DNA of 48,907 bases. It comes from Planctomycetota bacterium. Lineage in GTDB: Bacteria; Planctomycetota; Phycisphaerae; Sedimentisphaerales; Anaerobacaceae. Below, in pieces: positions 21,805-40,516 of this stretch (position 1 is the stretch's first letter; each line of letters begins with the position of its first letter). A model generated the notes under the pieces. The model was not told the origin of the DNA and did no database searches. It was given only the letters and a program-made list of their open reading frames with translations. The position numbers were made by a program, and so were the translations under genes. The stretch covers positions 1-48,907 of the forward strand of contig DAOWID010000023.1 in the NCBI GenBank assembly GCA_030641115.1, given 5' to 3'.

Positions 21805-22719
21805 TCATGTGCTTGGTGTCGCCATTCCTTTTCCCAAGCCTTCAAAAAAGCCCGTTGTTCCTGCATATCCCAACCCCGGGCCCCAGCCACTACCACTACT
21901 ACTACTCTGGCTCCTGCTGAAATTCATACCAAGCAGCGTCAATAAGATACTGAGGTTCTCCGGGTCGGTAATCTGGTTCTCCTGTGCGAATTTCGTTATT
22001 TCCGCTTCAAGCTCTCTCTGTCCCTGCGTTTGTTCTGCTGCCCCTATCCCGAATATGGTGCCAAGCCCACCTATCTGCTGTGCCGCTATTTTGAGATTGT
22101 TCTGTATCTCCTGTGCCGGCACCTGGCCATAAGCCATAGCCTGCGGAACAGCCGCCTGTGTCCTGCCAGCCCGTGCCTCGTCGAGTGCCTGGTTGCGACC
22201 GAGAACGTCCCACTCAAGCTGTCCCCGCTCCTCAGCTAATCGGTCAGCAACGTCCATGCTCGCCTCGACCCGCTCGTGGCTCCTGCCAGACGCAAAGAAT
22301 CCAGGACCAGCATAAGCCTCATCAATAGCAGGGTTTATATCCTCCCGCAAGGTCGTCATTGCGGGGTCATAGTGCTTCGCCTTAAAGTACTCCGAAACAT
22401 CCTGGTCAGAGAGTTTCTGTGCGCCGAACTCTCCACCCATAAGCCCCTTGATTGCCGTCCCTGTTTCATCGAACAAAGGTGTGCCAGCGGACAGTGGATT
22501 AGAGAACAAGTCTGAGTAATTCCCAACCCCGGCCATAGCACCCTGCTGTAGGGTAGAAAAGGGCGTAACCCTTTCACCCTGCCATACATTCTCATTCTTA
22601 CCTAATTCGGGCTTATATAGTTTAAGTGCCTTCTTAAGCCCTCTCTTTTGGGCCTTGGTTTTGGTTTCGCTTGTTGTTGTGCTTTCCGTTTTAGACCCAC
22701 CACTATCGAAACACCCCAT
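21805..22719 (-). CDS. Putative internal virion/ejection protein
   Basis: 304 aa, Gly/Ala/Gln-rich with a Ser/Gly tail. Call is by position. Confidence 0.55.
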   Translation of the reverse strand: MGCFDSGGSKTESTTTSETKTKAQKRGLKKALKLYKPELGKNENVWQGERVTPFSTLQQGAMAGVGNYSDLFSNPLSAGTPLFDETGTAIKGLMGGEFGAQKLSDQDVSEYFKAKHYDPAMTTLREDINPAIDEAYAGPGFFASGRSHERVEASMDVADRLAEERGQLEWDVLGRNQALDEARAGRTQAAVPQAMAYGQVPAQEIQNNLKIAAQQIGGLGTIFGIGAAEQTQGQRELEAEITKFAQENQITDPENLSILLTLLGMNFSRSQSSSSGSGWGPGLGYAGTTGFFEGLGKGMATPST

Positions 22720-23183
22720 TAGACAATCTCCTTGATATAAGAAGTCTCAAATTTCTGCATCCCTATTCGCTCATAAAATCGGCAGACTTTATCATGTAAG
22801 CCAGAGGCGAGTGTGCTTGCGTTCATTATCAAATGCGAACACCCCTGCCGTTTCGCCCACCAGCGTGCGCAATCAACCAGCTTTAAGCTGCCCCTTCCCC
22901 TGAACTTTTCTAATACATACCAATAATGCTCGTTGGCTATCCTTTGGTCGCCGAGCGGACTCTTGAAATACTCAATCCCCATATAACCAACCACCACACC
23001 CTCTACCAGCAACAAAAACAGAGCGGCGTTCTCTCTTTCAATCAAAGAAGCCAAACCAGCATAATGCCTATCCGGGACGAGGGATATTCCCATCCCATCA
23101 CCGTTGCACTCAGCTTTCCACTGCAAGACTATGGGCTTTAAGTCCTCAATGTCCTCTTGGTTTATTGCGGTTCTTACTATCAC
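22719..23183 (-). CDS. GNAT-family N-acetyltransferase
   Basis: 154 aa. VVVGYMGIEY...EKFRGRGSLKL (R-x-x-G-x-G acetyl-CoA motif) ...FYERIGM. Confidence 0.8.
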   Translation of the reverse strand: MIVRTAINQEDIEDLKPIVLQWKAECNGDGMGISLVPDRHYAGLASLIERENAALFLLLVEGVVVGYMGIEYFKSPLGDQRIANEHYWYVLEKFRGRGSLKLVDCARWWAKRQGCSHLIMNASTLASGLHDKVCRFYERIGMQKFETSYIKEIV

Positions 23184-26033: not shown

Positions 26034-27260
26034 TTAGTAATAATCTATCTTGATTCTGTATGCGTTCCCCTGAATGTATGTGCCCACACTGCCTATTATG
26101 ACATTTGTTGCGTCATACGCGACGACAAAAGCGGAGTTTGCGGTCGCAGACTCATACATACCTTCGGCAAAATATGTGCTTGTATTGTCATTGTAAGCTA
26201 TAATATCAACGGCAAGGATATTAGCTGCTGTAACGCCATGCGCCACCGAAGTTGAATCATCTGCGTCCAGAGTGCCTATTAGATATTTGGTATATATTTG
26301 TGTGCTTACGCCATTTACATCGCAATATCTGTACCCATCGCCATCGTGTCCCACCACATTGTCCTGATACGCCTTTATAGACTGCTGGGACGCAACCTTG
26401 TTAGGGTCGTCCGAGGCCATATCATCCTCATCTAAAAACCAACTCACGCCGGACACGTCCGTCTCGGTAACATCGGTTGTATTGGAATCGACATAGGCTT
26501 TTATGCTCTGTTGAGTAGCGAGTTGGGTAGCTGAATCAGATGCCATATCATCTTCGTCGAGTACAGATACCGAATCGCCGACATCTATCGCGCCATCATT
26601 TTGAAGGACTAATGCAATCTTGGAAGGCGTGTTTGCATCGTTACCGTCGTTTACGACAAAGCGAATCCTGCCCTTCTGGTCGTCGGATGTGCCATCATGC
26701 GAAAACTCGATATAGCCAAGGGTTGCCTGTTCGCCACCCGATTGCTCACCGTAAGCCCGGATTTGAGACTCCCTACCGTTTTCCGTGTCCTCGTCCACTT
26801 CGTTGTGCAGATATAGGGCCAGAGAATTGGCATCGACAAGGTATCTTCCGAGCACTTCCCAGGTAGAATCACGCCAACGCTTCAATACTGGCGGGTCGAA
26901 GTTATCATCCAGCCACAACCTGCCCCTGTCCCTTGCAATATCGGACAAGGCTGCGGAATCGTCCGGTAAATTCGGTTCCGCCGTAGTACCTTCGTAACAT
27001 ACAGCTGAGCCGTTAAGGTGCCAACCGCCCGCTGAGCTGGTTGCAAGAGTGACATGCTCCCTGTTCATACGGATTGCTATACCTTTGCGCAGGTCGTACA
27101 ATTCTTTGTAGGCGTTGCCATGCGGCTGGTCTATGTCTGGACTGGTTATGTCCCACTTACTTCCATCCCAGGGGTCATGCGTGCCGCCCAATGCCAGAAT
27201 CACAAAGCAGCCGAGCAATGTTAATACCACCATTCCAAGCACAAATTTCTTATCCATCAT
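26034..27260 (-). CDS. Tail fibre-like protein
   Basis: 408 aa. Two copies of the LDEDDMASD..(A)(T/S)QQSIKAY(V/Q)D motif common in phage fibre proteins. The N-terminus is hydrophobic (VLTLLGC). Confidence 0.7.
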   Translation of the reverse strand: MMDKKFVLGMVVLTLLGCFVILALGGTHDPWDGSKWDITSPDIDQPHGNAYKELYDLRKGIAIRMNREHVTLATSSAGGWHLNGSAVCYEGTTAEPNLPDDSAALSDIARDRGRLWLDDNFDPPVLKRWRDSTWEVLGRYLVDANSLALYLHNEVDEDTENGRESQIRAYGEQSGGEQATLGYIEFSHDGTSDDQKGRIRFVVNDGNDANTPSKIALVLQNDGAIDVGDSVSVLDEDDMASDSATQLATQQSIKAYVDSNTTDVTETDVSGVSWFLDEDDMASDDPNKVASQQSIKAYQDNVVGHDGDGYRYCDVNGVSTQIYTKYLIGTLDADDSTSVAHGVTAANILAVDIIAYNDNTSTYFAEGMYESATANSAFVVAYDATNVIIGSVGTYIQGNAYRIKIDYY

Positions 27261-28155
27261 ACAATTCCTCTAAACATGTCGTGTTATAGTCCTCGTACTC
27301 ACTAAGCCAGTTCTCGAACAATGCCCTTGTCTTGAGGGCCTTACTCTCGAATCGCGGCTGGCTTAACGCTATTTCATCGTATATTTCCGCAAGAGAAAAC
27401 AAGATAAGTCCTTTGTCGGAGTTGGTCAGTTGGCAAGTTGACCCGGAGCTGTTAGTCAGGACCGTCGCCCAAGGCGTATAGTCAATATGCAGGTACAGGC
27501 CGTTGTAATCACTGGAAGCCGGACAGTTGAAATAGAGCACGTTCCCCTGCCTGGTATATTCGGTGGGTTCAGAAGCACCTTCGTTGGCGATGGGTATATA
27601 CTTCGCCCTGAACTCATCTAAGGGCCGATACTTCAAGCCTGCCTGCCGGGTACTGCCGGCGTTAAGAACCCATATATTGCCTATGTGGGCAGGAGTACTC
27701 AGTGTACTCAAGGGAATCGAGAATACTGTGGCTGTCCCTGCGGCAAGATTAGACTCATCGGCACCTGTTTGGGCAAAAGTAAATGTCGTAGTCAATGGTA
27801 CACTTGCAATCGTATGCTCGCCGTCAAAGGCATTCGTCTCGGAACCGCTGTCAACATCCTCTAACTTGACCTTCTGCCCGACGAGCATCAAATGCGCTGC
27901 TGAAGTCGTTACAGTAACGACATTAGAGCTTCTGGCAGCGCCGCCTATCGCTACCGTCTTGGCCGATGAAAGCCGATACGTTGTTTCGTCGTGGGCCTCA
28001 AGGTCAACCAGCCTCGGACACCGCCTAACGATGACTATCTGGGCCTCGTTTAGCGTGTCTAATACAAAATCTTCCGTAATCAGGGCCGGATCATTCTGTC
28101 TCGCACACCTGAGCCTAATCGTGTCGATTAAGTCCTCTACATTCTTATTAGCCAT
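27250..28155 (-). CDS. Putative virion (adaptor/tail) structural protein
   Basis: 301 aa. Call is by position between the enzyme cassette and the fibre. Central beta-rich insert. Confidence 0.55.
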   Translation of the reverse strand: MANKNVEDLIDTIRLRCARQNDPALITEDFVLDTLNEAQIVIVRRCPRLVDLEAHDETTYRLSSAKTVAIGGAARSSNVVTVTTSAAHLMLVGQKVKLEDVDSGSETNAFDGEHTIASVPLTTTFTFAQTGADESNLAAGTATVFSIPLSTLSTPAHIGNIWVLNAGSTRQAGLKYRPLDEFRAKYIPIANEGASEPTEYTRQGNVLYFNCPASSDYNGLYLHIDYTPWATVLTNSSGSTCQLTNSDKGLILFSLAEIYDEIALSQPRFESKALKTRALFENWLSEYEDYNTTCLEELYDG

Positions 28156-28159
28156 GTTT

Positions 28160-29461
28160 TCATCTCGCTACAGAAGTTACCCTTACTTGCCTTACGGGTC
28201 TTTCCGTCTCCGGCCTTACCTGTGTCCTCTCAATCTTCATAGAGCAGTAAGGACAGTTCAGCACCCCGGTAATGGGGCCGTAATATATCTCGCGGCAGCA
28301 CGGACAAGTCCATCGCACATCCCCTTCTTCTTGAACCAAATGGATACCCTCGACGAGATACTTCGGTTCTTTAGGCCAAGTATTCGGGATGTTCGTCTTT
28401 ATCTGCTTGCCTTTTATATGGTCGTTAATAAAACCAGCAGCCCTCTGACAAGCCTTGCCGTCTATCGGGCCGTAAAGGTGTGTCTGTAGTTCACCGTAAA
28501 CAGCTTCGTTGATATTCGAGAGGCCCGGAATCGCCCTCGCCAAATACCATTCCAACTCCCTATAAATTTTCAGCATCGGACTGACCTGAGCCAGTAACAG
28601 GTCGGGATTGACGTTGCAGAAGTTAAATGCGGGTATATTAAGCAGGTGAGCCTCAATCGCCATCGTCGAACCACTATGCACCAGAATATCAGCGTCCCTT
28701 AACACCACAGACGCAGGTGTGTCCTCGGGATGTATCTTGACGCAATCAGGCAGCTTTTTTTTGTACTCAGCAGTAGATTCGCCGGGCCGCACCTTCAATT
28801 CAAAAGCAAGTTCATCCTCAAACCACTTCGCCAGCTCCTTAATAGCTTCAATCCAAGTGTCCCTTGCCTTGCGGTGTAGTGCGTGCAGCTTTTCGTGGTA
28901 CTCTGATTCTTCCGGCAATCCAGTTTCGCAATACTCGCTCCTGCAATCCGCAGTAGAAAAGCCGGTTGCGAAGAGAACTGTTCTTTTGCGCCCTGTGTTT
29001 GTCTCGGAATACGGCTCGAAATACGGGTCGAAAGCGAACGCACCACACGCCTTTAATTTCTCTGCTGGCATGTGTCCTTGCTCAGCTATTATATCCGTAA
29101 ACTCTTGGCCCCAGGTAAGTTCCAAATCAACATAAGGTGAGTAATCCCAATTACCAAGAATGACCGTTTTATGGTCCTCGCTAAGTTTCTCAAACTGTTC
29201 CCGGGCTTGGCCGGCCTCTCCACGCCGGACGATAACTTCAATCCCCCACTCCTTGCATTGTTTGACGAAATCATATTTGTACTGACCACCTGGCATCGGG
29301 ACTACAATCACATCCGGCTTTTCATAATATACCGATTCTCTGGCAGCATACACAAAGTTGCGTACCAAAACCTCATGGCCATAGATGCGCAGTCCTTCCG
29401 CTAACATTTGGTCGATAAACTTGTCCCTCTGGTTGGTTAGTGTGTAAAGTCCGATTTTCAT
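28160..29461 (-). CDS. GT-B-fold (TagF/capsule-synthesis-like) transferase with a C-terminal zinc ribbon
   Basis: 433 aa. RKRTVLFATGFS and LRDADILVHSGSTMAIEAHLLNIPAF resemble GT-B C-domain motifs. Ends with CPCC...CPYC. Confidence 0.65.
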   Translation of the reverse strand: MKIGLYTLTNQRDKFIDQMLAEGLRIYGHEVLVRNFVYAARESVYYEKPDVIVVPMPGGQYKYDFVKQCKEWGIEVIVRRGEAGQAREQFEKLSEDHKTVILGNWDYSPYVDLELTWGQEFTDIIAEQGHMPAEKLKACGAFAFDPYFEPYSETNTGRKRTVLFATGFSTADCRSEYCETGLPEESEYHEKLHALHRKARDTWIEAIKELAKWFEDELAFELKVRPGESTAEYKKKLPDCVKIHPEDTPASVVLRDADILVHSGSTMAIEAHLLNIPAFNFCNVNPDLLLAQVSPMLKIYRELEWYLARAIPGLSNINEAVYGELQTHLYGPIDGKACQRAAGFINDHIKGKQIKTNIPNTWPKEPKYLVEGIHLVQEEGDVRWTCPCCREIYYGPITGVLNCPYCSMKIERTQVRPETERPVRQVRVTSVAR

Positions 29462-30516
29462 TTTAATACTCTTTCTTCTGTCCTGTTAGGGATACCCCTT
29501 GTGCGCCAATCGCCTTCGAGGGGGTTTTCTCCGTTATAAAAGTGTGTGCCCGGAAAAGGCTGGAACCTATAATTGCCGGAGATACATAGCGTTTTCCGGT
29601 TCTTGAACTTAAACGCTGCTGTTAATTGTCTGTCTTTGACTGTCTCACCGGGCAGGTAATACATCATCGAACAGCACACTGGCAGGTCAATCTGATTGCA
29701 AATATCCACACATCGCTGATGGTCCTCTACGGTTTCCTGCTTGTTGATAAGTTTTAACATTCTATCACTGCCGGACTCACCCCCGAAACGCACGCTTATA
29801 AAGCCCATAGCCTTCATTTTCTTGGCAATTTCCAGATTCACACAGTTAGAGCGAACAAAGCCCTTTAATCCAAACCTCTTGTTCAAGCCTTTAGTCATCC
29901 ACATCTCATATATCTGGTTGAACCTTGCCAGGTTTACTACGAACAAATCATCCATCGTGTAGAGGATATTTGATTCTGGATACATCCGGTCAATGCACAA
30001 TACCTCGTCCATAAAGTATTCCGCCGAATGGAACCTGACCTTGCCCCAATAGTTTTGAGAAGAGCAGAAATAACAATTCCAGGGGCATCCCCGGCTCGTA
30101 AGAATCGGGACCTCTTTGCCGCACGCGCCCCTGTAAGGAAGCTTTATAGTGTCAAGGTCTTCAATGTTCTCAGGACGCATTATTCTTTCAGTGGTCTTAC
30201 CATCTATAATATCCTGCAACGCTGTCTCGCCTTCACCGATAACTATATGGTCAAATGGATAGTCCTTCAATCCTTCCCACATAGTACCCTGCCCGCCAAT
30301 AACTACGGGGACATCGGCTGTTATTGCTATATCCACCGCTTCCTTCAGCCCGCCTACGGTAGAGCTCAGACCGATTAGGTCACAATCTGCAAGTTGTGTT
30401 CGGTCTTTGGCCAGTTCAATATCGGCACCAACGCAGTTGGCTTTCAGATAACCAATGCCAAGAGGCCACTCGCTTATGGGGTCCTCGCCACCACAGAGAT
30501 AAAACTTAATCTTCAT
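29458..30516 (-). CDS. B12-binding-domain-type radical SAM enzyme
   Basis: 352 aa. Rossmann-like N-domain, then SRGCPWNCYFCSS (CxxxCxxC) and a downstream GGESGS-like motif. Confidence 0.9.
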   Translation of the reverse strand: MKIKFYLCGGEDPISEWPLGIGYLKANCVGADIELAKDRTQLADCDLIGLSSTVGGLKEAVDIAITADVPVVIGGQGTMWEGLKDYPFDHIVIGEGETALQDIIDGKTTERIMRPENIEDLDTIKLPYRGACGKEVPILTSRGCPWNCYFCSSQNYWGKVRFHSAEYFMDEVLCIDRMYPESNILYTMDDLFVVNLARFNQIYEMWMTKGLNKRFGLKGFVRSNCVNLEIAKKMKAMGFISVRFGGESGSDRMLKLINKQETVEDHQRCVDICNQIDLPVCCSMMYYLPGETVKDRQLTAAFKFKNRKTLCISGNYRFQPFPGTHFYNGENPLEGDWRTRGIPNRTEERVLK

Positions 30517-30519
30517 TGG

Positions 30520-31182
30520 CTACACACCCCTTCCATAAAACATAGGAGCATAAACATCGCGCCCCTGATGGTCCTGTTTCTTGTAAATCCTTATCTGCTT
30601 CCATGCAAATTCAGGGCAATTCTGTTGCAACTGCTCAAACCACCAATCCTGGTTTTTGACAGTGATATGAAGGGGCGGGCATCCACTACAGGCCATCTTA
30701 ACGATAATTCCACTACCGCTTATCCTTGCCATCTCCTTTAGAATGTCAGGCATTTCGTCCTCTGGTAAATGCTCCAGCACATCAAAACTTACACAATAGT
30801 CAAACTCATTGTCCTTGAACGGATAAGGTGTTTCGGAGAGGTCGTGCTCAACAAACAGGTATTTGGACCTGTCATAAATCAGTTTATTGTCGAAAATGTC
30901 CACACCGGTAACGTCCACTTTTATATCCGATAACAAGTTGCACAATATACCATTACCACAACCAAGTTCGATAACGGATATGGGTTTAGGCTCATCTGTC
31001 CAGGGGTCATGGACAATACCGTCCTTGTCTCGCAGCAGATGAAGCCAATCACATACTACATACAGACCTTGATTTATTACCCGATAACGGGCGGAGGCCG
31101 TGTGCATCGTCCTGTATAAGTTTCTCTGACTATCTGCTATTTGTTGTAACGCTGTTTTCACGATAGTTTTCTCCTTCTTCAT
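30520..31182 (-). CDS. Class I SAM-dependent methyltransferase
   Basis: ATG at 31182. VIELGCGNGILCNLL (motif I) and DYCVSFDVLEHLP. The longer track form overlaps the upstream gene. Confidence 0.85.
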   Translation of the reverse strand: MKKEKTIVKTALQQIADSQRNLYRTMHTASARYRVINQGLYVVCDWLHLLRDKDGIVHDPWTDEPKPISVIELGCGNGILCNLLSDIKVDVTGVDIFDNKLIYDRSKYLFVEHDLSETPYPFKDNEFDYCVSFDVLEHLPEDEMPDILKEMARISGSGIIVKMACSGCPPLHITVKNQDWWFEQLQQNCPEFAWKQIRIYKKQDHQGRDVYAPMFYGRGV

Positions 31183-31255
31183 CTTCTTAAAGGTATAATC
31201 TCCTGCCAAGGGTGCTCCAAAAATAAAGAGCACCCTGGCAGAAGAAGGGTTTTCT

Positions 31256-31558
31256 TTAGTAGCCAAACAAGATGTAGTCGATGGTATCGGGTGAATTACC
31301 CGTACCCGTTCCATCTGCCTGTGAGATAGGTCCGCGTCTGGTGAACGTGACCTGACCATTCGACGGCGCACCAATCGTTGCCACAGCCGTTATACCGTCC
31401 TTCAACATCACGCCATGCCCAAACAAAACTTTTTTGAGTTTGGTAGCAATCGTGAAGGTCTGGCCGGACGCACCTGTTATACTCACGGCGTTGCCAATCT
31501 CCATTCGCACGCCGGCAAGCGTTACCATTTTCTGAATCATATTATCAAATGCTGCCAT
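31256..31558 (-). CDS. Hypothetical small virion-module protein (possible decoration protein)
   Basis: 100-aa beta-rich ORF downstream of the capsid genes. Confidence 0.5.
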   Translation of the reverse strand: MAAFDNMIQKMVTLAGVRMEIGNAVSITGASGQTFTIATKLKKVLFGHGVMLKDGITAVATIGAPSNGQVTFTRRGPISQADGTGTGNSPDTIDYILFGY

Positions 31559-31604
31559 AATTAAAACCTCCTTTCAAAAAGGTCGTCTCCAAAAGAGGTT
31601 TCAA

Positions 31605-32159
31605 TTAAGAGGTTGTGTCCGTTACCAGGCTGAACGCAGAAAACACGGCACAATCCGTATTAGTAGCAAGGTGGAACACGGCATAGCTCGAACTCGCAGC
31701 TAATACCATGTAACTCTGAGCTGATACGCCGCCGTCCGTAACATACGCAGCATCATCAAGGGTTGCGATAGTATCTTGTGGACAGACACCACCAACCCAA
31801 AACCATGCATAAGGCAGGGCGGTTGTTACTGAGGCAAGGGCTATCGCTATTGGTCCGGTCAAGCCCACTTCGCTGCCATCGTCATTTACGCAGAAATAAT
31901 CTCCCGAAGCTGCCGCCGCCGTGTGCATACCACAGGTGTCCCTGATAGTGGCCTCTGGCACAGCTCCGTCGACGAATTTGAGGTACATCAAGGTTGCCCA
32001 ACCATTGTTCGTCGCGTCATAAATCATGCGTTTAGTACCGAGGTCAAAGTCCTCAGTAGCCGATGGAGTTGTCCAATCAGACGGGTTTGGCCCATTAGTT
32101 ACTTCGCCCGGCCAGTTGTCTATCAAGTAGAACTCTGTTGACAAAATTCCTACTGTCAT
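31605..32159 (-). CDS. Hypothetical virion-module protein
   Basis: ATG at 32159. 184 aa, beta-rich, directly after the capsid gene. Confidence 0.55.
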   Translation of the reverse strand: MTVGILSTEFYLIDNWPGEVTNGPNPSDWTTPSATEDFDLGTKRMIYDATNNGWATLMYLKFVDGAVPEATIRDTCGMHTAAAASGDYFCVNDDGSEVGLTGPIAIALASVTTALPYAWFWVGGVCPQDTIATLDDAAYVTDGGVSAQSYMVLAASSSYAVFHLATNTDCAVFSAFSLVTDTTS

Positions 32160-32255
32160 AGTAGTACTCCCTTCAAAAATAAAGGTCGTTTGGGAAACTA
32201 ATTCGAGCACAACGCCACGTCCCAAGTTACGTTGCGCTATTACGCCGTCATGCTG

Positions 32256-33338
32256 TTAAGCGGTGACGTTTTCGTAGTACAGATTGGGACCCGGATGCCA
32301 GCAAACGAGGTTGCCTGCGAACAGGACCCTCGCCAGCGTCATATCCGAACCACCGGCAATCTTCTTCTGGTCGAAGAACTCGGTGAGCTTGAAGTCCCTG
32401 GACGGGTCGATGAACATGTCCCAATCCCGCAGATTCAGGCCGTAGACCCTCCGCTCAAGAGCGCCGATAGCATCAGAGGTTTCGCCCATGATGGTGTTGT
32501 TAGCCGCCTTGAGGAACGGGTCCTTGATTATCCTGCGACTGTCGAGAATCATCTCCGTAAAGCCCTGACGGGCAGTACGGTTGGCCTCGATCTTGTAGGC
32601 CATCGAACGGGCCTCAGCCTCGGCCTGTAAGGACAGCCAGAGAACACCACCGAGGATTGTTATCAGGTCGGTATTGTCGCTCTCGATGTCCTCTAAAGGC
32701 TCGAACCACGTGCGCATCTGCGCGATGCCGATTGCCACCGCAGTCGCCTGGACCGCTTGTGTGATGGTGCCACCCATCGGCTGGAACCAGAAGCCAGTAT
32801 CGGCCTTGGTGCCGGCACTGTACGTCCTGGTAACTTCGCCATAGGTAGTGTCAACTTCCAGAGCACTGTTCAAGCCCTGCATGTACTTGTTGCTGTCCGT
32901 CGCTTGGGTAGCAAGACTCGAATTGGCACTGCGGTAAAGCAACTTGCGCATGTGGACGCGAACGGCCTCGTTCGCCTTGCGCGTGCGGAACTTCGCCATG
33001 TTGTGGAGCTGTGTACCGTCCTTGGTCTGCCTGGCGTTTTCAAGTTCCTCGTCAATGTCAATCTGTACCGGACACTGGAATTTCTTCCTTTGGAACTTTA
33101 TTTCCTCGGTCGTGTCCTTAACACCGTGACTGAGCTGCTGGTTGACGTTGTAGTCCTGTACCAAATCCTCGTGGGTGTCAACGTCCGCTTCCCTGGTGTA
33201 CTTCTTACCGCCCTTGAACTGCAACGTCTTGCGCTCGAGCATAAGGGCCGTTACCGGATTCTTATGCATGTACTCAACCTCCCACGTGTTATCATGGAAA
33301 TCGCGGGTCAGGTTGTCCAAATCCTGATGAAAACTCAT
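32256..33338 (-). CDS. Major capsid protein (HK97-fold type, by position and size)
   Basis: 360 aa, immediately after the scaffold-like gene. Composition is typical of a capsid protein. Confidence 0.75.
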   Translation of the reverse strand: MSFHQDLDNLTRDFHDNTWEVEYMHKNPVTALMLERKTLQFKGGKKYTREADVDTHEDLVQDYNVNQQLSHGVKDTTEEIKFQRKKFQCPVQIDIDEELENARQTKDGTQLHNMAKFRTRKANEAVRVHMRKLLYRSANSSLATQATDSNKYMQGLNSALEVDTTYGEVTRTYSAGTKADTGFWFQPMGGTITQAVQATAVAIGIAQMRTWFEPLEDIESDNTDLITILGGVLWLSLQAEAEARSMAYKIEANRTARQGFTEMILDSRRIIKDPFLKAANNTIMGETSDAIGALERRVYGLNLRDWDMFIDPSRDFKLTEFFDQKKIAGGSDMTLARVLFAGNLVCWHPGPNLYYENVTA

Positions 33339-33355: not shown

Positions 33356-34225
33356 TCAACTTGTTCGGGCCGCTGCCGCCGCTTGCGCGTGTACTTCATC
33401 CAGCGAACCCTTTTTTAATTTAACTCCTGACAAGCTCGGCGGAGAACCACCACCTGAGCCTGTGTCGAGTGAGATAGAAGATTTGTCCTTACCGGCCTTT
33501 TCCTTGGCTTCCTTCGCGGCCTCTTTATAGCACTGCTCCATCGCCCGGGTCGCCTTGGTGGGCGAGCCCTTCTGCACCTTGCCGTCCGCCACACGCTGAT
33601 TGAACTTTGCAACGGCGGCGTTGCGGTGTTCCGTGCCGTATTCGGTGTCAAGACCCTGCAAAAGCTCGTTATAGTCAGCGTTGCGTGCGAGCTTGGCTGT
33701 GTCGGCCTTTGCTTGGACCTCATAATTGCTCTTCGCTTTTTCGAGATTCTCAATGCGGGTATCTTTCGCCTTAATAGCCCCTCTAAGCGAGTTGATGGCA
33801 TTCACCAGAGCAACATCAGTGCCTTCGTAATCCTCCGCCTTCAGCTCGGCGGTAGCAATGCCCTGGTCGGCAGCTTTTGATTCGAGAGCAGCAAGCTGTT
33901 CCTTGAGGCCCTTATTCTCCTGCTGTTGTGTATCAAGCTGGCCCTGGACCTCGGTAGCAGTAGCCTGAGCTTCCGCCGCTTGGTCTCGCGCCCGCTGCGC
34001 ATTGGCTTTTTCCTGGTCTAAAGCCTGCTGTGTCTTGGTGTAGACCTTGTTGTCTTTGAGGTCGGCCTCTTCCGCCTCGGCGATGGCCTTACTTACGGCA
34101 TCACCATCAGCTTTAGTTCCGCCTTCACCTTCAGAACCTTCAGGAAAGAACCGTACAAACGGCCCGTAAAATTTCGCCAATTCAATGGCCCGATGTTTCA
34201 TTTCTTCTTTTCTCGTACTCAACAT
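33356..34225 (-). CDS. Scaffolding protein
   Basis: 289 aa, A/E/K/Q-rich coiled coil, between portal and capsid genes. RBS AAAGGAG. Confidence 0.7.
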   Translation of the reverse strand: MLSTRKEEMKHRAIELAKFYGPFVRFFPEGSEGEGGTKADGDAVSKAIAEAEEADLKDNKVYTKTQQALDQEKANAQRARDQAAEAQATATEVQGQLDTQQQENKGLKEQLAALESKAADQGIATAELKAEDYEGTDVALVNAINSLRGAIKAKDTRIENLEKAKSNYEVQAKADTAKLARNADYNELLQGLDTEYGTEHRNAAVAKFNQRVADGKVQKGSPTKATRAMEQCYKEAAKEAKEKAGKDKSSISLDTGSGGGSPPSLSGVKLKKGSLDEVHAQAAAAARTS

Positions 34226-35455: not shown

Positions 35456-37549
35456 CTATGCTGCTCCCTTCTTCTTCTGCTCCGGTGGCCCTTCGCCCAT
35501 ATCCGGGGCCAACTGACCCGCCTGCACTAATAACTGGGCCAACTGCTGTAATTCCGGTATCGGCACCTGCTGTAAAAACGCCTGTACCTGCTCCGGTGGT
35601 AGTTGCATCAATAACTGGCCCATGCCAATAAACTGCCGGAATAGCTGCAAGCCTTTATATCTGGCAAGTATCTCTCGTCGCTTCGAGATATTTAGTACCC
35701 GCAGCATGTCCTCAATCATCGGGTTCGGTATCGGGTTCTCTAACAACTGATAAGCGGCTGCGTACTCCTGCTGCTTCTTCTGCTCGTCGAATGGTAGGGT
35801 TGATCCAGGCTCGATATTGACATCAAAGCGAACGTCAAGCATCATCTGGTCGGCCCGCATACCACTTTGCTTTTCGTCGGACAGCATCTTCATAAGCCGC
35901 TTCGGGTCATAGTTTCGCTGGCAGAGTTCAGCTACCAGTGTCATCGTATCGTCAATCCACTTATCGAGGAATATGCCCTGCAAGCCGACGTAATCCAAAG
36001 CGTTTTGATTGAGCCTGACAATCTCAGCCTTCGTTTGCTGGCCCTTCTCTGCTTCGCCCCTGGCTACCGGGTGCATAAACTCCTGAGCGTCAATGTCCTT
36101 CTTGAGGATTTCCGCCAACGTAGCAACAGCAGGGTCGAGAGGTGGATATTCGAGGTTCTTTATCTTATCGAGCTTGCCTCTTGCAGCCACGATGATTCTG
36201 CCGAGTCCGGTGATAGCATCCTTCTTACTGCGTACCTTCCCGTCCCGGCCCCTGGCCAAAGCCCCAGCCTCTACAACCTTCGTCGGGTCTGCCGTCCTTC
36301 TGACCTGATTGACCATCGAGCTTACGGTGATATTGAGGAAGTCATTGTTGTTCCGGGACATTTCAACGGCGTTACCACCCTGCCACATGTGCGGCAGAAT
36401 ATGATATGGCATCACGGTAAACGGCCATCGGCTCCCTTTATAAACCTGGTCCTCCTCCTTTGGATTGAGTATCGTCCTGCCTATCCGCAAGACAAACCGC
36501 CCATTCGGGTACAATGGCTCGCTGTATTCTTTAGTAACTTGCTTGGGCCAATCGGTAAGCGGCTTCATTGTTTTCGGGTCCAGGAATACTCCGGTTGTCT
36601 CCTCCTTGACAATCGTGCCCTGACGCAACAACAACTCTTCTGGCACGTTATCCTCTATCTTGACGTGCTTCTCCTCGTAGTCCCGCCAATATATTTCCTC
36701 AATATCGACGTACTGCTGCTTATCGCTGGATACGAGGTCGGCTGACAAACTGCCCGTAACAGTGCCTTGGCCGAGTATCAACGTAACCAACTTAGAGAAC
36801 ATATTCTGACGTGAAACTGAAAGCGCTTGGCCCTTCTGGTCTGTGTAAGTAATCATATCAGCAGCCGTATATTTTGGGTCGGAAGTGCTATAAGCCTCTG
36901 TCTCTATAGCTTTTTTATGGTCTTTCCAGCGGTTCTGTGCCCACTCAAGCTTCACCCTTCGGCGTGTGCCGCAGTTCTCGGCGGTTGCAAGGTTCTCGGC
37001 TGATGGGTCTGCCCAAAACAAAGCAGGATGCACGAAATACTCGTCGGCCTTACCCGTCCAGGACTTCATCACATCATCCCATCCACCTATAGGCCGGTTC
37101 TCCCACTGTGTCTTGCCGACCATATAGCCGAACACGCCACAGTCCAGCAGGCCCTTAATGAGCTTCAGCCGCATACTAAGCTCGTAGGGCGATTCCCACA
37201 GGTATTGTAAGTGTCCCGCCCACTTCTCAGCATACTCAGTAGCGCCCTCCTGCTCATCATCCCAGGCGTTAGTGAGTATCTTTGGATTATTACCAGCCAA
37301 TTTCGCTATCGTCTGGAACATCAAGGGGTATATACGGTTAAGGACTATGTACTCCCAATTTTCTTTCAGGTTCCAGCCCTGAAGCTGTTGGCTCCACACA
37401 TACTGGACGGCGGTAAACCACATGTCCATCCACTTCTTCGTTACCGTCATACCGGCATCTCGAATATCGTCGAGAAAAGCGTTAAGGTCAGGATGCTTGT
37501 CAGCTATCCCTGCCGGGTTCCCGTGAGTTGTACCTTCCTTTGGGTTCAA
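35456..37549 (-). CDS. Portal protein
   Basis: 697 aa. Call rests on its position between terL and the scaffold gene, plus size and composition. Confidence 0.7.
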   Translation of the reverse strand: MNPKEGTTHGNPAGIADKHPDLNAFLDDIRDAGMTVTKKWMDMWFTAVQYVWSQQLQGWNLKENWEYIVLNRIYPLMFQTIAKLAGNNPKILTNAWDDEQEGATEYAEKWAGHLQYLWESPYELSMRLKLIKGLLDCGVFGYMVGKTQWENRPIGGWDDVMKSWTGKADEYFVHPALFWADPSAENLATAENCGTRRRVKLEWAQNRWKDHKKAIETEAYSTSDPKYTAADMITYTDQKGQALSVSRQNMFSKLVTLILGQGTVTGSLSADLVSSDKQQYVDIEEIYWRDYEEKHVKIEDNVPEELLLRQGTIVKEETTGVFLDPKTMKPLTDWPKQVTKEYSEPLYPNGRFVLRIGRTILNPKEEDQVYKGSRWPFTVMPYHILPHMWQGGNAVEMSRNNNDFLNITVSSMVNQVRRTADPTKVVEAGALARGRDGKVRSKKDAITGLGRIIVAARGKLDKIKNLEYPPLDPAVATLAEILKKDIDAQEFMHPVARGEAEKGQQTKAEIVRLNQNALDYVGLQGIFLDKWIDDTMTLVAELCQRNYDPKRLMKMLSDEKQSGMRADQMMLDVRFDVNIEPGSTLPFDEQKKQQEYAAAYQLLENPIPNPMIEDMLRVLNISKRREILARYKGLQLFRQFIGMGQLLMQLPPEQVQAFLQQVPIPELQQLAQLLVQAGQLAPDMGEGPPEQKKKGAA

Positions 37550-38111: not shown

Positions 38112-39701
38112 CTAAAACGTGCAGGTAGCCTTTATTGTCGCCCATTCCGTCCCCGTCCACATCAGGACCCAGGTCTCATCTACAGCATCAAAAGTTCCCA
38201 CCTCCGGGTCCTCCGTCTCGTGATTGGTAACAGAAACCGTGCTTGAATTACTTGCCTCGGTCATTACTATAGTAATCGTTTCGCCGATATAACGACCGCC
38301 TGGCAGGGTCGCTGTCACTGCAGCGCCCGATGAATCCACGGGAACTTCTCCCCACCACGGCTGCAGGGTTATCGTGCCGGTGGCTGTCCTTCCTACCGAC
38401 CTGTTGTTTCGGGCAACCAAACTGCTAATGGCGGTTTCTTCGTGAATTTTGTTCCCCTCACTCAGGACCGCAGGGGTCATATCATTGTCGACAATGGTTA
38501 TATTGCTGCAGCCGGTGCGCAGGTAGACTAACTGAGTGGGGGTAGTACTTGTATTTGACCATACATTCCCCTGCATAAGAACATAGCTTCCGGCAATTTC
38601 ACAGCTCCCCCAAGTATTGTATTCAAAATGATTGTTGAAAAGGCCCACATAACTACCCGTTGCCGAAACGTACAAGTCGGCCTTGCAGTCGTAGGTATAG
38701 CAGTTGGAAATAAGAACGCTGTTCCCGTCGACGTAGAACGCAGTCTTGTGTATGCCCTCCAAAATACAATTATTAATAACGATGCGCTTTGCCGTGCTTG
38801 TGACATGGATACCCTTTTTATATTCCGTCGTGGATGTCTTGAAGATACAATTCGAGATACTGATATTCTCCGCGTCTGATATATCCACAGCATCGGTTGC
38901 GAAATCTACAATCGTGCAATTACTCACGGCGATGTCTTTGGCGTGCTGGATATAAATACCGCTCTGCGTAGAGCCGGTGCCGTTAACATTGCTTACTGCG
39001 ATGTTTTCATTGTTCCGTCCATCTGTTTGCCATTCGATACAAATGTGTTCGGTTCCGGGGTTGCGACTAATGATATTACTGCAATTAATAAATGTACTCC
39101 CGTAACCAATAAAAACGGCATGATTACCCGAATTGACGGTAGTAATATTGTTTATCGTTCCATCATTGCAGTCGCTCACTATAAGCGTGTCCTTGTTTGT
39201 GTCACAAATATATAAATTACTTAAAGAGAACCGCTTCACTGTTTTCAAATATAACCCATACGAGGAAGCGCCGCCTTGCCCCGTGCCGTCGATTGTCATA
39301 TCAGAGACTACGACATCTGTCTTGGTATCAGCTTCCAACATAGTCTCCATAAGCGTAGCAGTTGCCTGGAAAATTGTATTACGGCCATAGCCCTTAAGAG
39401 TAAGGTAAGAACGCAGATTAATTTTGCCGTTAATGCTGAACGTTCCTTCGCCGGGAGAAACTTTGCCCCCAATAGCAGGCAGGGCGTCTATCGCCGCCTG
39501 TATCTGGACCTGGTCATCTACACCGTCACAAATATAATCAGCAGAGGCTCGAACCTTGGCAGACGCATCTGAGGCCGCCACAGAAAGAGTGTAGCCCGAC
39601 CCCCTGTCCGGCCCCTTCTTATGTCTGCCTCGTCCCCACCAGCCCTCAGCAACCGAGGTACACAACAATAGCAATACAAGCCCTACAATTAGCTTCTTCA
39701 T
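38112..39701 (-). CDS. Right-handed beta-helix (pectate-lyase-fold) glycanase/depolymerase-like protein with an N-terminal signal peptide
   Basis: MKKLIVGLVLLLLCTSVAEG signal. DDQVQIQAAIDALPAIGG...GTFSI start motif. Repeated N..I.N/ISNC beta-helix rungs. Confidence 0.85.
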   Translation of the reverse strand: MKKLIVGLVLLLLCTSVAEGWWGRGRHKKGPDRGSGYTLSVAASDASAKVRASADYICDGVDDQVQIQAAIDALPAIGGKVSPGEGTFSINGKINLRSYLTLKGYGRNTIFQATATLMETMLEADTKTDVVVSDMTIDGTGQGGASSYGLYLKTVKRFSLSNLYICDTNKDTLIVSDCNDGTINNITTVNSGNHAVFIGYGSTFINCSNIISRNPGTEHICIEWQTDGRNNENIAVSNVNGTGSTQSGIYIQHAKDIAVSNCTIVDFATDAVDISDAENISISNCIFKTSTTEYKKGIHVTSTAKRIVINNCILEGIHKTAFYVDGNSVLISNCYTYDCKADLYVSATGSYVGLFNNHFEYNTWGSCEIAGSYVLMQGNVWSNTSTTPTQLVYLRTGCSNITIVDNDMTPAVLSEGNKIHEETAISSLVARNNRSVGRTATGTITLQPWWGEVPVDSSGAAVTATLPGGRYIGETITIVMTEASNSSTVSVTNHETEDPEVGTFDAVDETWVLMWTGTEWATIKATCTF

Positions 39702-40107: not shown

Positions 40108-40516
40108 CGCAGTACGCCGCCGTCAACTCGTCGCTACGACCTTCCTGCTCAGGCATATTTCCCTGCTCAATCATCTTCTTGAACCACTTGACCAACGTGG
40201 TCAGAGAGTGAGCATGTTGCCCTGAAATGGTTACATCTTTACTCTCTTTTACTGGCTTATTACAAGATGGACAGAGCAATTCCCCATCATCTCCTGGCTC
40301 GCAATCACCAACAAAACCAGCCCATAAACAAGCTATACAAAACATAGGCACTTCGGTTATTGACCGCAGCGTTTTTGCCGCTACCCTTCCCACACCCTGA
40401 CACATTGGGCATTTGATGAAATTCCGCTCTGCCGCCCATCCTACGGTACTGTGCCAGTGACCATCCCCTTTACATCTTGGACACATCACAAGTTGTTGTT
40501 TCCTTTCCTTACTCAT
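40076..40516 (-). CDS. Cys-rich protein with DnaJ-type CxxCxGxG zinc-finger motifs
   Basis: ATG at 40516 overlapping the terL stop. CPRCKGDG and CPMCQGVG, plus a later CPSC. Confidence 0.6.
   Translation of the reverse strand: MSKERKQQLVMCPRCKGDGHWHSTVGWAAERNFIKCPMCQGVGRVAAKTLRSITEVPMFCIACLWAGFVGDCEPGDDGELLCPSCNKPVKESKDVTISGQHAHSLTTLVKWFKKMIEQGNMPEQEGRSDELTAAYCDELLEDLGSE

What the first reader, a model, noticed from the sequence alone, without database searches (positions are those of the whole stretch)
28160..31182. SAM-MTase, B12-type radical SAM and GT-B/zinc-ribbon enzyme cassette wedged between head and tail genes
Seen in sequence: three tightly coupled genes (a 4-nt overlap at 29458-29461 and a 3-nt gap at 30516/30520) interrupt an otherwise structural late operon. 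They lie between the capsid gene with two small virion-module ORFs (31256-33338) and the tail genes (from 28155 down).
- A class I SAM methyltransferase (VIELGCGNG, DVLEHLP).
- A radical SAM enzyme with a Rossmann-like N-domain and SRGCPWNCYFCS.
- A 433-aa GT-B/TagF-like transferase ending in a CPCC...CPYC zinc ribbon.

Established knowledge: B12-dependent radical SAM enzymes typically methylate unactivated carbons of sugars, phosphonates or peptides. Glycosyltransferases inside structural operons glycosylate virions in some mycobacteriophages.

Inference: this is a late-expressed pathway that builds or attaches a C- or O-methylated glycan or polyol-phosphate. The target could be a virion protein (candidates are the 100-aa and 184-aa ORFs just upstream, the capsid or the fibre) or the host envelope. 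I know of no described phage virion-modification system that uses a B12-type radical SAM enzyme.
Basis: partly seen in the sequence, partly recalled or inferred. Interest (0 to 1): 0.8.

Follow-up and report, generated by a model that had tools for sequence, protein, structure and literature searches.

The report
Phage head-tail sugar-attachment enzyme cassette
Three enzyme genes between this phage's head and tail genes most likely attach and chemically tailor a sialic-acid-like sugar late in infection, probably onto a head protein, and the transferase is a fixed gene at that spot in hundreds of uncultured phages.

Summary
Three tightly coupled minus-strand genes lie between the head genes and the head-to-tail adaptor:
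- a class I SAM methyltransferase (30520-31182);
- a radical SAM enzyme with a B12-binding-like N-domain (29458-30516);
- a 433-aa GT-B enzyme with a C-terminal four-cysteine zinc ribbon (28160-29461).

**Not an insertion.** The GT-B gene sits next to the head genes in about 30 related loci. The methyltransferase is usually beside it. The B12-like radical SAM gene is an accessory found in a subclade.

**The sugar.** The GT-B protein matches only two families: Tannerella forsythia pseudaminic/legionaminic-acid transferases (BFO_1060) and TIGR04396. Both matches fall below the curated cut-offs. In nine relatives from three phage groups its homolog lies among nonulosonic-acid genes (PseB, PseI, a CMP-activating enzyme). 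The window has none of these, so its donor sugar would come from the host.

**The tailoring pair.** The methyltransferase and radical SAM enzyme occur together elsewhere. They are fused in one protein and adjacent in three glycan-type loci.

Best reading: a late-expressed module that transfers and tailors a nonulosonic acid, probably onto a head protein. The acceptor, donor and cobalamin use are unproven. I found no published description.

The parts
30520..31182 (-). Class I SAM-dependent methyltransferase (220 aa from the ATG at 31182). It is the usual upstream partner of the GT-B gene.
   Evidence: Pfam Methyltransf_23/11/25 above gathering scores, with only generic NCBIfam matches. Homologs lie directly upstream of the GT-B gene in L001-L006, L008-L013 and L015. 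Homologs also lie beside radical SAM homologs in L031-L033 and are fused to one in P0166.
29458..30516 (-). Radical SAM enzyme with an N-terminal Rossmann, B12-binding-like domain (class-B-like architecture). It is an accessory member of the cassette.
   Evidence: PF04055 scores 64 bits and PF02310 26.5 bits, the latter below its cut-off. NCBIfam best hits are all B12/radical SAM families, all below cut-off. C144/C148/C151 are invariant in 26 homologs. The AF2 model has pLDDT 93.4. Foldseek full-length matches are MgmA, TsrM, MiaB, AprD4 and OxsB at TMq 0.7-0.76. Homologs occur in L005, L006, L009 and L011, always in the order methyltransferase, radical SAM, GT-B.
28412..29461 (-). GT-B catalytic body (residues 1 to about 350) of the 433-aa transferase-like protein. 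It is related to the nonulosonic-acid transferase family BFO_1060 and to TIGR04396.
   Evidence: NF046086 E 8e-26, aligned over 5-364 of 365 model positions, and TIGR04396 E 7e-23, both below curated cut-offs. AF2 pLDDT is 89.9. Foldseek finds GT-B fold neighbours at E about 1e-11 and TM about 0.5. There are 129 and 192 homolog clusters, all on phage-size contigs. Invariant motifs are RRGEAG, DLExWG, LFAT, KVRPGE and HxGSTxAxE.
28226..28324 (-). C-terminal four-cysteine zinc ribbon of the transferase (C386, C389, C403, C406).
   Evidence: All four cysteines are invariant in 34 homologs. The model shows four short strands at residues 382-412. The ribbon is present in most phage homologs, including unrelated phage groups, and lies outside the region aligned to the bacterial models. 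It is absent from the L024-L028 and L030 subgroup.
31199..31245 (-). Strong RNA hairpin between the stop codon of the 100-aa head-module ORF and the methyltransferase start. It probably separates the abundant head transcripts from the enzyme genes.
   Evidence: Free energy is -36.2 kcal/mol, z -6.7, with 0 of 200 shuffles as stable. Hairpins of different sequence occupy the same position in L006, L001, L012 and L008. It has no T-tract, so the terminator scan did not call it.
31605..32159 (-). 184-aa head-module protein. It is a candidate acceptor, by inference only.
   Evidence: It is conserved directly after the capsid gene in all SU10-like relatives. The extreme C-terminus carries a conserved (A/V)-D-T-T-(S/A/G) tail in 12 of 15 close loci. 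It matches no Pfam or PHROG family.
31256..31558 (-). 100-aa head-module protein. It is a second candidate acceptor, by inference only.
   Evidence: It is conserved between the 184-aa ORF and the cassette. It has conserved GQVTFTR and SADT segments.
27250..28155 (-). Head-to-tail adaptor homolog, which forms the downstream boundary of the cassette.
   Evidence: Its homolog in L003 and L004 carries Pfam PF24175 SU10_adaptor. It follows the GT-B gene in most relatives.

Best explanation
The cassette is a late-expressed glycan attachment and tailoring module.

**The transferase.** The 433-aa protein is a GT-B transferase of a phage-specific branch related to bacterial nonulosonic-acid (pseudaminic/legionaminic) transferases. 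It most likely takes a CMP-activated nonulosonic acid and transfers it to an acceptor made at the same time as the virion. This phage has no genes to make such a donor, so the host would supply it. The acceptor is most probably a head protein: the 184-aa or 100-aa protein encoded just upstream, or the capsid protein. The phage-specific C-terminal zinc ribbon may dock the enzyme on its acceptor.

**The tailoring pair.** The class I methyltransferase and the class-B-like radical SAM enzyme are a coupled pair that modifies the sugar or the sugar-acceptor product. The methyltransferase would add an O- or N-methyl group. The radical SAM enzyme would perform a C-methylation or an AprD4-like radical dehydration or rearrangement.

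**Expression.** A conserved hairpin upstream lowers or separates expression of the enzymes relative to the abundant head proteins.

**Shown:** enzyme folds and families, conserved position, co-occurrence with nonulosonic-acid genes in relatives, and the methyltransferase/radical SAM linkage.

**Inferred:** donor identity in this phage, the acceptor, the chemistry of the radical SAM step, the role of the zinc ribbon and the role of the hairpin.
For: 1. **Family.** The only family matches of the GT-B protein are NF046086 (BFO_1060 family glycosyltransferase, E 8e-26, full-length) and TIGR04396 (E 7e-23).
   - BFO_1060, Tanf_01245 and TFUB4_00887 are the T. forsythia transferases whose deletion removes the terminal Pse or Leg derivative from the O-glycan (PMC5420450).
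   - That organism has a separate, biochemically proven PseG (PMC5378307).
2. **Fold.** The model has a GT-B fold.
3. **Association with nonulosonic-acid genes.**
   - In L024-L028 and L030 the homolog lies among PseI (327 bits), PseB (387 bits), an aminotransferase, a PseH-like GNAT, a FemAB-like protein and a CMP-transferase.
   - In L018, L022 and L023, which are other phage groups, it lies near NeuB and/or CTP_transf_3.
4. **Position.**
   - The gene lies after capsid, 184-aa and 100-aa genes and before the adaptor in the window and in L001-L006, L008, L010-L015 and L019. L021 shows the same upstream order but ends inside the gene.
   - In L023 it lies just after an unrelated HK97-type capsid gene.
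5. **Independent evolution of the parts.** The transferase is retained while the biosynthesis genes come and go. This fits a transferase using a host or phage donor.
6. **Methyltransferase/radical SAM coupling.** The two are fused in P0166. They are adjacent in L031, L032 (a NeuB, GT2, DegT glycan cluster) and L033 (a pyruvyl-transferase context).
7. **Radical SAM architecture.** The fold matches MgmA, TsrM, OxsB and the sugar-acting AprD4.
8. **Operon structure.** The genes are tightly coupled, with no internal promoter or terminator above background and a conserved upstream hairpin.
Against: - The matches to BFO_1060 (91 bits against a cut-off of 200) and TIGR04396 (81.5 against 125) are below the curated cut-offs, so this is a related family and not a member.
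- No member of the phage family has been studied experimentally, and none has a solved structure.
- The phage Pse-type cassettes contain no recognisable PseG. The GT-B protein could therefore be the missing nucleotide-sugar hydrolase. Its best structural neighbours are UDP-GlcNAc 2-epimerases.
- The window has no donor-biosynthesis genes and the host is unknown, so donor availability is assumed.
- The T. forsythia enzymes act on a sugar of a lipid-linked glycan, not on a protein.
- The acceptor is inferred from gene order only. The C-terminal DTT tail of the 184-aa protein is missing in L010, which still has the cassette.
- Cobalamin dependence is unproven.
Confidence: 0.5

Rival explanations
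1. Host-surface conversion. The same enzymes cap or tailor a host glycan (O-antigen, capsule, S-layer or flagellin glycan) with a modified nonulosonic acid. This would change the receptor and block superinfection or stop progeny adsorbing to cell debris. Virions would not be modified.
For: The phage is temperate, with an integrase at 10665-11621. The closest characterised relatives (BFO_1060 family) act on a sugar of a cell-surface glycan. The methyltransferase and radical SAM homologs occur in cellular-type glycan clusters.
Against: The genes are embedded in the late head-tail gene string, with 3-4 nt junctions and no promoter of their own above background. The position next to capsid genes recurs in at least three unrelated phage groups. 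As far as I know, known conversion genes sit near int/att and are expressed from the prophage. The zinc ribbon is phage-specific.
Confidence: 0.2
2. The GT-B protein is a nucleotide-sugar hydrolase or hydrolysing epimerase, not a transferase. It would be a PseG or LegG analogue that completes the phage Pse-type pathway. In the window clade it would act on host UDP-sugars.
For: The L024 and L025 cassettes contain PseB, an aminotransferase, PseH-like, PseI and a CMP-transferase but no recognisable PseG. The GT-B protein is the only unassigned candidate there. Its top Foldseek neighbours are UDP-GlcNAc 2-epimerases.
Against: It has no sequence match to the PseG or NeuC models at E<=0.1. The matched family (BFO_1060) coexists with a proven PseG in T. 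forsythia and behaves genetically as the transferase. Some homologs match the TagF/TagB transferase family PF04464. A lone hydrolase retained in more than 100 phages that lack the rest of the pathway is hard to rationalise. Foldseek TM-scores of about 0.5 do not separate epimerases from transferases.
Confidence: 0.12
3. The methyltransferase and radical SAM enzyme modify a virion protein directly, for example by side-chain C-methylation as MgmA does on methyl-coenzyme M reductase. This would be independent of the sugar transferase.
For: The best structural match of the radical SAM enzyme is the protein glutamine C-methylase MgmA (E 2.5e-16, TMq 0.73). NCBIfam hits include RiPP and MCR methylases. 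Other phage relatives carry SPASM-type radical SAM genes next to the GT-B gene.
Against: Homologs at 50-58% identity lie in glycan-type loci beside NeuB, GT2, DegT, pyruvyl-transferase or Capsule_synth genes, with no obvious peptide substrate. The sugar-acting AprD4 matches equally well (TMq 0.76). In phages the gene is always wedged between the methyltransferase and the GT-B gene.
Confidence: 0.1
4. The cassette hypermodifies phage DNA by glycosylating and methylating bases, with the zinc ribbon binding nucleic acid.
For: To my knowledge, GT-B enzymes, methyltransferases and radical SAM enzymes all occur in known phage DNA hypermodification pathways. The zinc ribbon resembles RNA polymerase subunit P/Rpo12-type ribbons at a non-significant E-value of 0.16, and JGI annotates two homologs that way.
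Against: No hydroxymethylase, kinase or other base-activating gene was found in the window ORFs scanned. The position is next to capsid genes, not the replication module. The associated sugar genes in relatives make CMP-nonulosonic acids, for which I know of no DNA-linked precedent.
Confidence: 0.04

Closest known systems
Tannerella forsythia nonulosonic-acid transferases Tanf_01245, TFUB4_00887 and BFO_1060 (NCBIfam NF046086), and the uncharacterised TIGR04396 'surface carbohydrate biosynthesis protein' family
   Same: There is full-length sequence similarity over the GT-B body (E 8e-26 and 7e-23). Both are linked genomically to CMP-Pse/Leg biosynthesis genes. In strain UB4 only a putative methyltransferase separates the transferase gene from the CMP-Leg biosynthesis locus. 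This resembles the phage methyltransferase and GT-B pair.
   Different: Scores fall below both curated cut-offs, so this is a separate, phage-restricted branch. The phage protein adds a C-terminal four-cysteine zinc ribbon. It is encoded in a virion structural module. The bacterial enzymes cap a lipid-linked O-glycan, whereas the phage acceptor is unknown and possibly a protein.
Virion glycosylation in mycobacteriophages (Che8, Corndog; Freeman et al. 2023, recalled from my own knowledge and cited in papers listed), and chlorovirus capsid glycosylation with a glycosyltransferase/methyltransferase protein (A064R; own knowledge; review PMC4691112 listed)
   Same: In both, virus-encoded glycosyltransferases, with methyltransferases in some cases, are thought or shown to decorate capsid or tail proteins. 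In the phage cases they use host nucleotide sugars.
   Different: The enzyme families differ. No nonulosonic acid, radical SAM enzyme or zinc-ribbon transferase is involved in those systems. Here no virion glycan has been observed.
Radical SAM enzymes with a B12-binding-type N-domain: MgmA (9ccb), TsrM (6wte), OxsB (5ul4), and the architecturally similar cobalamin-free AprD4 (6fd2)
   Same: They share a two-domain architecture of an N-terminal Rossmann domain and a radical SAM barrel, at TMq 0.7-0.76. The CxxxCxxC motif is present. AprD4 acts on an aminoglycoside sugar.
   Different: At 352 aa it is much smaller, with no C-terminal extension. No NCBIfam family cut-off is reached. Cobalamin binding and the substrate are unknown. 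It is paired, and sometimes fused, with a class I methyltransferase.
Flagellin nonulosonic-acid glycosyltransferases (Maf, FlmG)
   Same: They transfer Pse or Leg directly to Ser/Thr of an abundant, self-assembling structural protein in the cytoplasm. This is the mode proposed here for a head protein.
   Different: There is no sequence relationship, since no hit appeared in the family scans. The comparison is functional only.

Membership tests
Class I SAM-dependent methyltransferase (Pfam Methyltransf_23/11/25) | Rossmann-type SAM-binding domain with a glycine-rich motif I, scoring above the Pfam gathering threshold | tested here: met
   PF13489 scores 52.5 bits (cut-off 27) and PF08241 51 bits (cut-off 21.2). 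Motif VIELGCGNG is present.
Radical SAM superfamily (PF04055) | CxxxCxxC cluster motif in a partial TIM barrel, scoring above the gathering threshold | tested here: met
   The score is 64.4 bits against 29.5. C144/C148/C151 are invariant in 26 homologs. The barrel appears in the AF2 model.
Class B (cobalamin-dependent) radical SAM enzymes | N-terminal B12-binding Rossmann domain | tested here: inconclusive
   PF02310 scores 26.5 bits, below its cut-off of 32.1. The SxL...GG-like spacing is present but there is no DxHxxG. The fold matches MgmA, TsrM and OxsB, and equally the non-cobalamin AprD4 and MiaB. All B12/radical SAM NCBIfam hits are far below cut-off.
Class B (cobalamin-dependent) radical SAM enzymes | Bound cobalamin cofactor and methyl transfer through methylcobalamin | not testable with these tools
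   This requires purified protein, UV-visible or EPR spectroscopy and an activity assay.
BFO_1060 family glycosyltransferase (NF046086; nonulosonic-acid transferases) | Whole-protein score at or above the curated cut-off of 200 bits | tested here: not met
   The score is 91 bits, E 8e-26, although 5-364 of 365 model positions align. This makes it a relative, not a member.
BFO_1060 family glycosyltransferase (NF046086; nonulosonic-acid transferases) | Genomic linkage to a CMP-Pse or CMP-Leg biosynthesis locus | tested here: inconclusive
   The feature is met in relatives L018, L022-L028 and L030. It is not met in the window or its closest relatives, which have no biosynthesis genes.
BFO_1060 family glycosyltransferase (NF046086; nonulosonic-acid transferases) | Transfer of a nonulosonic acid from its CMP donor | not testable with these tools
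   This needs an enzyme assay or genetics.
TIGR04396 surface carbohydrate biosynthesis protein | Score at or above the curated cut-off of 125 bits | tested here: not met
   The score is 81.5 bits, E 7e-23. JGI nevertheless labels several homologs with this name.
TagF/TagB CDP-glycerol glycerophosphotransferases (PF04464) | Match to the Glyphos_transf domain | tested here: not met
   The window protein has no Pfam hit at E<=0.01. Seven of the 120 listed homologs of the L024-type branch carry a precomputed PF04464 hit. A TagF-like capsule polymerase (8a0m) ranks only 36th in Foldseek.
PseG, NeuC and LegG nucleotide-sugar hydrolases | Match to the PseG or hydrolysing 2-epimerase models | tested here: not met
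   No such NCBIfam hit appears at E<=0.1. Structural similarity to non-hydrolysing UDP-GlcNAc 2-epimerases is only at the fold level, with TM about 0.5.
Phage virion glycosylation systems | A glycan covalently attached to virion proteins that depends on the phage genes | not testable with these tools
   Only the gene position next to the head genes could be tested. That feature is met.

The most novel reading that the evidence does not exclude
A large, uncultured group of tailed phages decorates its heads with nonulosonic, sialic-acid-like sugars, using a phage-specific zinc-ribbon GT-B transferase encoded next to the capsid gene. There are at least 300 homolog clusters, spread over at least three capsid lineages. 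Some phages carry the whole CMP-pseudaminic-type pathway in the structural operon. Others, like this one, use the host donor and add a methyltransferase plus a class-B-like radical SAM enzyme that makes a C- or O-methylated or deoxygenated derivative. This would be the first nonulosonic-acid glycosylation of a virus particle by its own enzymes. It would also be the first radical SAM tailoring step in virion modification.
Probability: 0.35. Interest if true: 0.85.

Novelty: new variant of a known kind. Interest (0 to 1): 0.66.

Why it matters
Nonulosonic acids (sialic, pseudaminic and legionaminic acids) are surface sugars used by bacteria for immune evasion, motility and recognition. I know of no phage shown to put them on its own particle. 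If these phages do so, several things follow.
- It would reveal a widespread way for virions to change their surface chemistry, for example to mimic the host, avoid sticking to debris or mucus, or resist enzymes.
- It would assign a function to a family of several hundred 'hypothetical' phage proteins.
- It would provide a soluble, self-contained nonulosonic-acid transferase. Such enzymes are scarce tools in glycobiology.
- It would provide a compact 352-aa class-B-like radical SAM enzyme paired with a methyltransferase for sugar tailoring.

Even if the target is the host surface, the module would be a new type of phage-encoded surface conversion.

Tried and rejected
- **Reference phages.** Nucleotide and protein searches of the INPHARED phage collection with the region and with the GT-B protein found nothing. 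There is no cultured relative.
- **Single-protein scan.** A scan of viral contigs with the single protein found nothing. The alignment-based scan was needed.
- **Solved structures.** Sequence searches with the GT-B protein and with its profile gave no meaningful hit.
- **Bacterial genomes.** The genome-contig scan returned one locus, L030. It is a 52-kb phage-like contig binned with a Thermodesulfovibrionales MAG. No bacterial chromosomal context for the GT-B family was obtained.
- **Hydrolase or transferase.** I tried to settle this from bacterial contexts by searching with a distant homolog. The search again returned only phage-size contigs.
- **Other cellular loci.** The GT-B profile found no credible homolog in the three radical SAM homolog loci L031-L033.
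- **Other sugar genes in the window.** None was found.
- **Literature.** Five searches for phage nonulosonic-acid or virion glycosylation systems produced no relevant description. Two papers that looked promising (PMC8402811, PMC6292376) were irrelevant.
- **Acceptor motif.** I considered the conserved C-terminal DTT(S/A) tail of the 184-aa protein as an acceptor motif. It happens to fit the Bacteroidota O-glycosylation sequon D(S/T)(A/I/L/V/M/T) quoted. The evidence is suggestive only, and L010 lacks the tail.

Full report
**1. What is in the window**

The window is a temperate podovirus-like phage genome with nearly all genes on the minus strand. In transcription order the late region reads:
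- small terminase-like gene 42268-42879 and large terminase 40509-42311;
- beta-helix tailspike-like protein 38112-39701;
- portal 35456-37549, with SU10/PHROG portal matches;
- scaffold-like 33356-34225;
- capsid 32256-33338;
- a 184-aa ORF (31605-32159) and a 100-aa ORF (31256-31558);
- the three enzymes;
- a 301-aa adaptor homolog (27250-28155);
- a fibre (26034-27260) and a 779-aa virion protein;
- ejection-type proteins, including a 1849-aa ART-PolyVal protein.

An integrase lies at 10665-11621.

**2. The three proteins**

*Methyltransferase.* It is a generic class I SAM enzyme above Pfam thresholds. It matches no specific NCBIfam family.

*Radical SAM enzyme.*
- It scores 64 bits on PF04055 and has an invariant C144/C148/C151 triad.
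- Its N-terminal 110 residues match the B12-binding domain below threshold.
- All its best NCBIfam hits are B12/radical SAM families, none near cut-off.
- A confident AlphaFold model (pLDDT 93.4) aligns over its whole length with the cobalamin enzymes MgmA, TsrM and OxsB. It aligns equally well with AprD4, a cobalamin-free sugar diol-dehydratase, and with MiaB/RimO (TMq 0.66-0.76).
- The class-B-like architecture is therefore established. Cobalamin use and methylase chemistry are not.

*Third protein.*
- It has no Pfam hit and no solved relative by sequence.
- It folds confidently (pLDDT 89.9) as a GT-B enzyme followed by a four-strand zinc ribbon.
- Its only family matches are NF046086 (BFO_1060 family glycosyltransferase, E 8e-26, full length) and TIGR04396 (E 7e-23). 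Both are below the curated cut-offs.
- BFO_1060, Tanf_01245 and TFUB4_00887 are the T. forsythia enzymes required for adding the terminal pseudaminic or legionaminic acid derivative to the S-layer O-glycan (PMC5420450).
- That bacterium also has a separately proven PseG hydrolase (PMC5378307).

**3. Relatives**

The GT-B protein has 129 homolog clusters at 41-78% identity, and a sister branch has 192 more. All are about 430 aa and all sit on phage-size contigs. I read 30 related loci: L001-L004 by exact look-up, L005-L029 from IMG/VR and L030 from a MAG. I annotated them with profiles built from the window's proteins.

Results:
- **(a) Position of the GT-B gene.** It lies after capsid, 184-aa and 100-aa genes and before the adaptor in the window and in every SU10-like close relative whose locus covers that region. 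Those are L001-L006, L008, L010-L015 and L019. L021 shows the same upstream order but ends inside the gene.
- **(b) Methyltransferase.** It lies directly upstream of the GT-B gene in most of these loci. It is absent from L014, L019 and L021.
- **(c) B12-like radical SAM gene.** It occurs only in L005, L006, L009, L011 and the window, always between the methyltransferase and GT-B genes. Equal contig lengths suggest about 20 more contigs carry both genes.
- **(d) Other radical SAM genes.**
  - A small (284-304 aa) radical SAM-like gene follows the GT-B gene in L001, L006-L009 and L012.
  - A further radical SAM gene directly follows the GT-B gene in L018.
  - A SPASM-type radical SAM gene lies about 2 kb downstream in L022.
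- **(e) Full sugar pathway in relatives.** In L024-L028 and L030 the GT-B homolog (28-33% identity) sits inside a pseudaminic-type pathway. The pathway comprises:
  - PseI (327 bits) and PseB (387 bits);
  - a class III aminotransferase;
  - a PseH-like GNAT and a FemAB-like protein;
  - a CMP-transferase;
  - in some loci a formyltransferase and a PIG-L deacetylase.

  All lie between the adaptor and fibre genes.
- **(f) Other phage groups.** In L018, L022 and L023 the homolog again lies near NeuB and/or a cytidylyltransferase. In L023 it follows an HK97-type capsid gene of a different family.
- **(g) No donor pathway in the window.** The window has no nonulosonic-acid biosynthesis gene.

**4. 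The methyltransferase/radical SAM pair**

The radical SAM enzyme has more than 500 homologs. Those at 50-58% identity lie on contigs of 97-340 kb. In three such loci a homolog of the window's methyltransferase lies beside it. The neighbours are glycan enzymes:
- NeuB-cupin, GT2, DegT, Polysacc_synt_2 and NTP-transferase in L032;
- a polysaccharide pyruvyl-transferase, a sulfotransferase and a second radical SAM enzyme in L033;
- Capsule_synth in L031.

One protein, P0166, fuses the two domains. The pair is therefore a mobile glycan-tailoring unit that one phage subclade inserted next to its transferase.

**5. Expression**

No promoter-like or terminator-like site above shuffled background lies inside the cassette. 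A very stable hairpin (-36 kcal/mol, z -6.7) sits between the 100-aa ORF and the methyltransferase gene. Equivalent hairpins of different sequence occupy the same spot in four relatives. I read this as a boundary that keeps the head transcripts abundant and lets a lower level of read-through express the enzymes. This is inference.

**6. Best explanation and rivals**

The most economical reading is a late-expressed module in which the conserved GT-B enzyme transfers a CMP-activated nonulosonic acid. The host supplies the donor here, and the phage supplies it in some relatives. The acceptor is made at the same time as the virion. The methyltransferase and radical SAM pair tailor the sugar.

The recurrent position beside capsid genes in three capsid lineages points to a head protein as acceptor. 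So does the phage-specific zinc ribbon. The 184-aa protein has a conserved extreme C-terminal (A/V)DTT(S/A/G) tail in 12 of 15 close loci and is the leading candidate, but L010 lacks the tail.

Rivals:
- host-surface conversion (0.2);
- the GT-B protein as a PseG-like hydrolase (0.12), because the phage pathways lack a recognisable PseG and the top fold neighbours are UDP-GlcNAc 2-epimerases;
- direct protein modification by the methyltransferase/radical SAM pair (0.1);
- DNA hypermodification (0.04).

The hydrolase rival is weakened in three ways. The matched family behaves as a transferase alongside a genuine PseG. Some homologs hit the TagF/TagB family. The gene also persists alone in more than 100 phages.

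**7. Comparison with what is known, and novelty**

By function the system resembles mycobacteriophage and chlorovirus virion glycosylation, and flagellin nonulosonic-acid glycosylation. By sequence it is a new, phage-restricted branch near the BFO_1060 and TIGR04396 transferases. It fails both curated thresholds, so I do not file it as a member.

Searches of the held literature found no description of a phage-encoded nonulosonic-acid transferase in a structural module. They also found no radical SAM enzyme in virion modification.

I rate it a new variant of a known kind, with interest 0.66. The enzyme identities and the conserved architecture are solid, and the link to nonulosonic acids is new and testable. 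The donor, the acceptor and the radical SAM chemistry remain inferred.

Noticed in passing
window 31199-31245 (-); also L006:6199-6243, L001:9120-9163, L012:7208-7303, L008:7356-7397: A very stable hairpin lies immediately after the stop codon of the 100-aa head ORF and is preceded by a CUUCUUCU-like run. Its position is conserved in relatives but its sequence is not. It may be an attenuator or transcript-stabilising element separating the head genes from the enzyme genes.
   Followed up: partly
window 31605-31619 (-), the C-terminus of the 184-aa ORF; homologs in L001-L015: The extreme C-terminal tail (A/V)-D-T-T-(S/A/G) is conserved in 12 of 15 close relatives although the preceding residues vary. 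It happens to fit the Bacteroidota O-glycosylation sequon D(S/T)(A/I/L/V/M/T). It is a possible acceptor site.
   Followed up: partly
L001:11269-12177, L006:9321-10193, L007:1264-2178, L008:9215-10129, L009:3181-4035, L012:9321-10193; L022:11513-12409; L018:2531-3481: Several relatives carry other radical SAM genes near the GT-B gene. One is a small type of about 290 aa that directly follows it. A further radical SAM gene directly follows it in L018, and a SPASM type lies about 2 kb downstream in L022. At least three kinds of radical SAM enzyme have therefore been recruited near this transferase in phages. L006 and L009 carry both the B12-like and the small type.
   Followed up: partly
L024:3696-9817, L026:2801-11134, L030:2350-12000: Complete-looking pseudaminic-type CMP-sugar pathways lie inside the structural operon, between the adaptor and fibre genes, of related phages. 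They include formyltransferase, PIG-L deacetylase and FemAB-like tailoring genes but no recognisable PseG.
   Followed up: partly
window 22719-23183 (-): A GNAT acetyltransferase (PF00583, E 7e-8) is embedded among the tail and ejection-protein genes. A homolog occupies the same position in L001 (16651-17115).
   Followed up: no
window 15329-20878 (-): An 1849-aa protein has an ART-PolyVal ADP-ribosyltransferase domain (E 9e-13). It lies downstream of ejection-type proteins and is probably an injected internal virion protein. Relatives have it too (L001).
   Followed up: no
window 38112-39701 (-) and 26034-27260 (-): The beta-helix tailspike-like protein between the terminase and portal genes starts with a signal-peptide-like sequence (MKKLIVGLVLLLLCTSVAEG). 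The 408-aa fibre starts with a hydrophobic, transmembrane-like segment. Both are unusual for virion proteins.
   Followed up: no
window 10665-11621 (-), 13306-13377 (-), 44360-45217 (-), 45984-46814 (-): These regions hold a tyrosine integrase, a tRNA-Met gene, an N6/N4 DNA methylase and a DUF5131 protein. The phage is temperate and methylates DNA.
   Followed up: no
P0166 (579 aa): This is a natural fusion of a class I methyltransferase domain and a homolog of the radical SAM enzyme (67% identity over 95% of the query). It is Rosetta-stone evidence that the two enzymes act together.
   Followed up: partly
L030 (JALHSV010000264.1, 52 kb): This phage-like contig with the same head-tail layout and a Pse-type cassette is binned in a Thermodesulfovibrionales MAG. 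It is the only host hint obtained, and it may reflect a binning artefact or a prophage.
   Followed up: no
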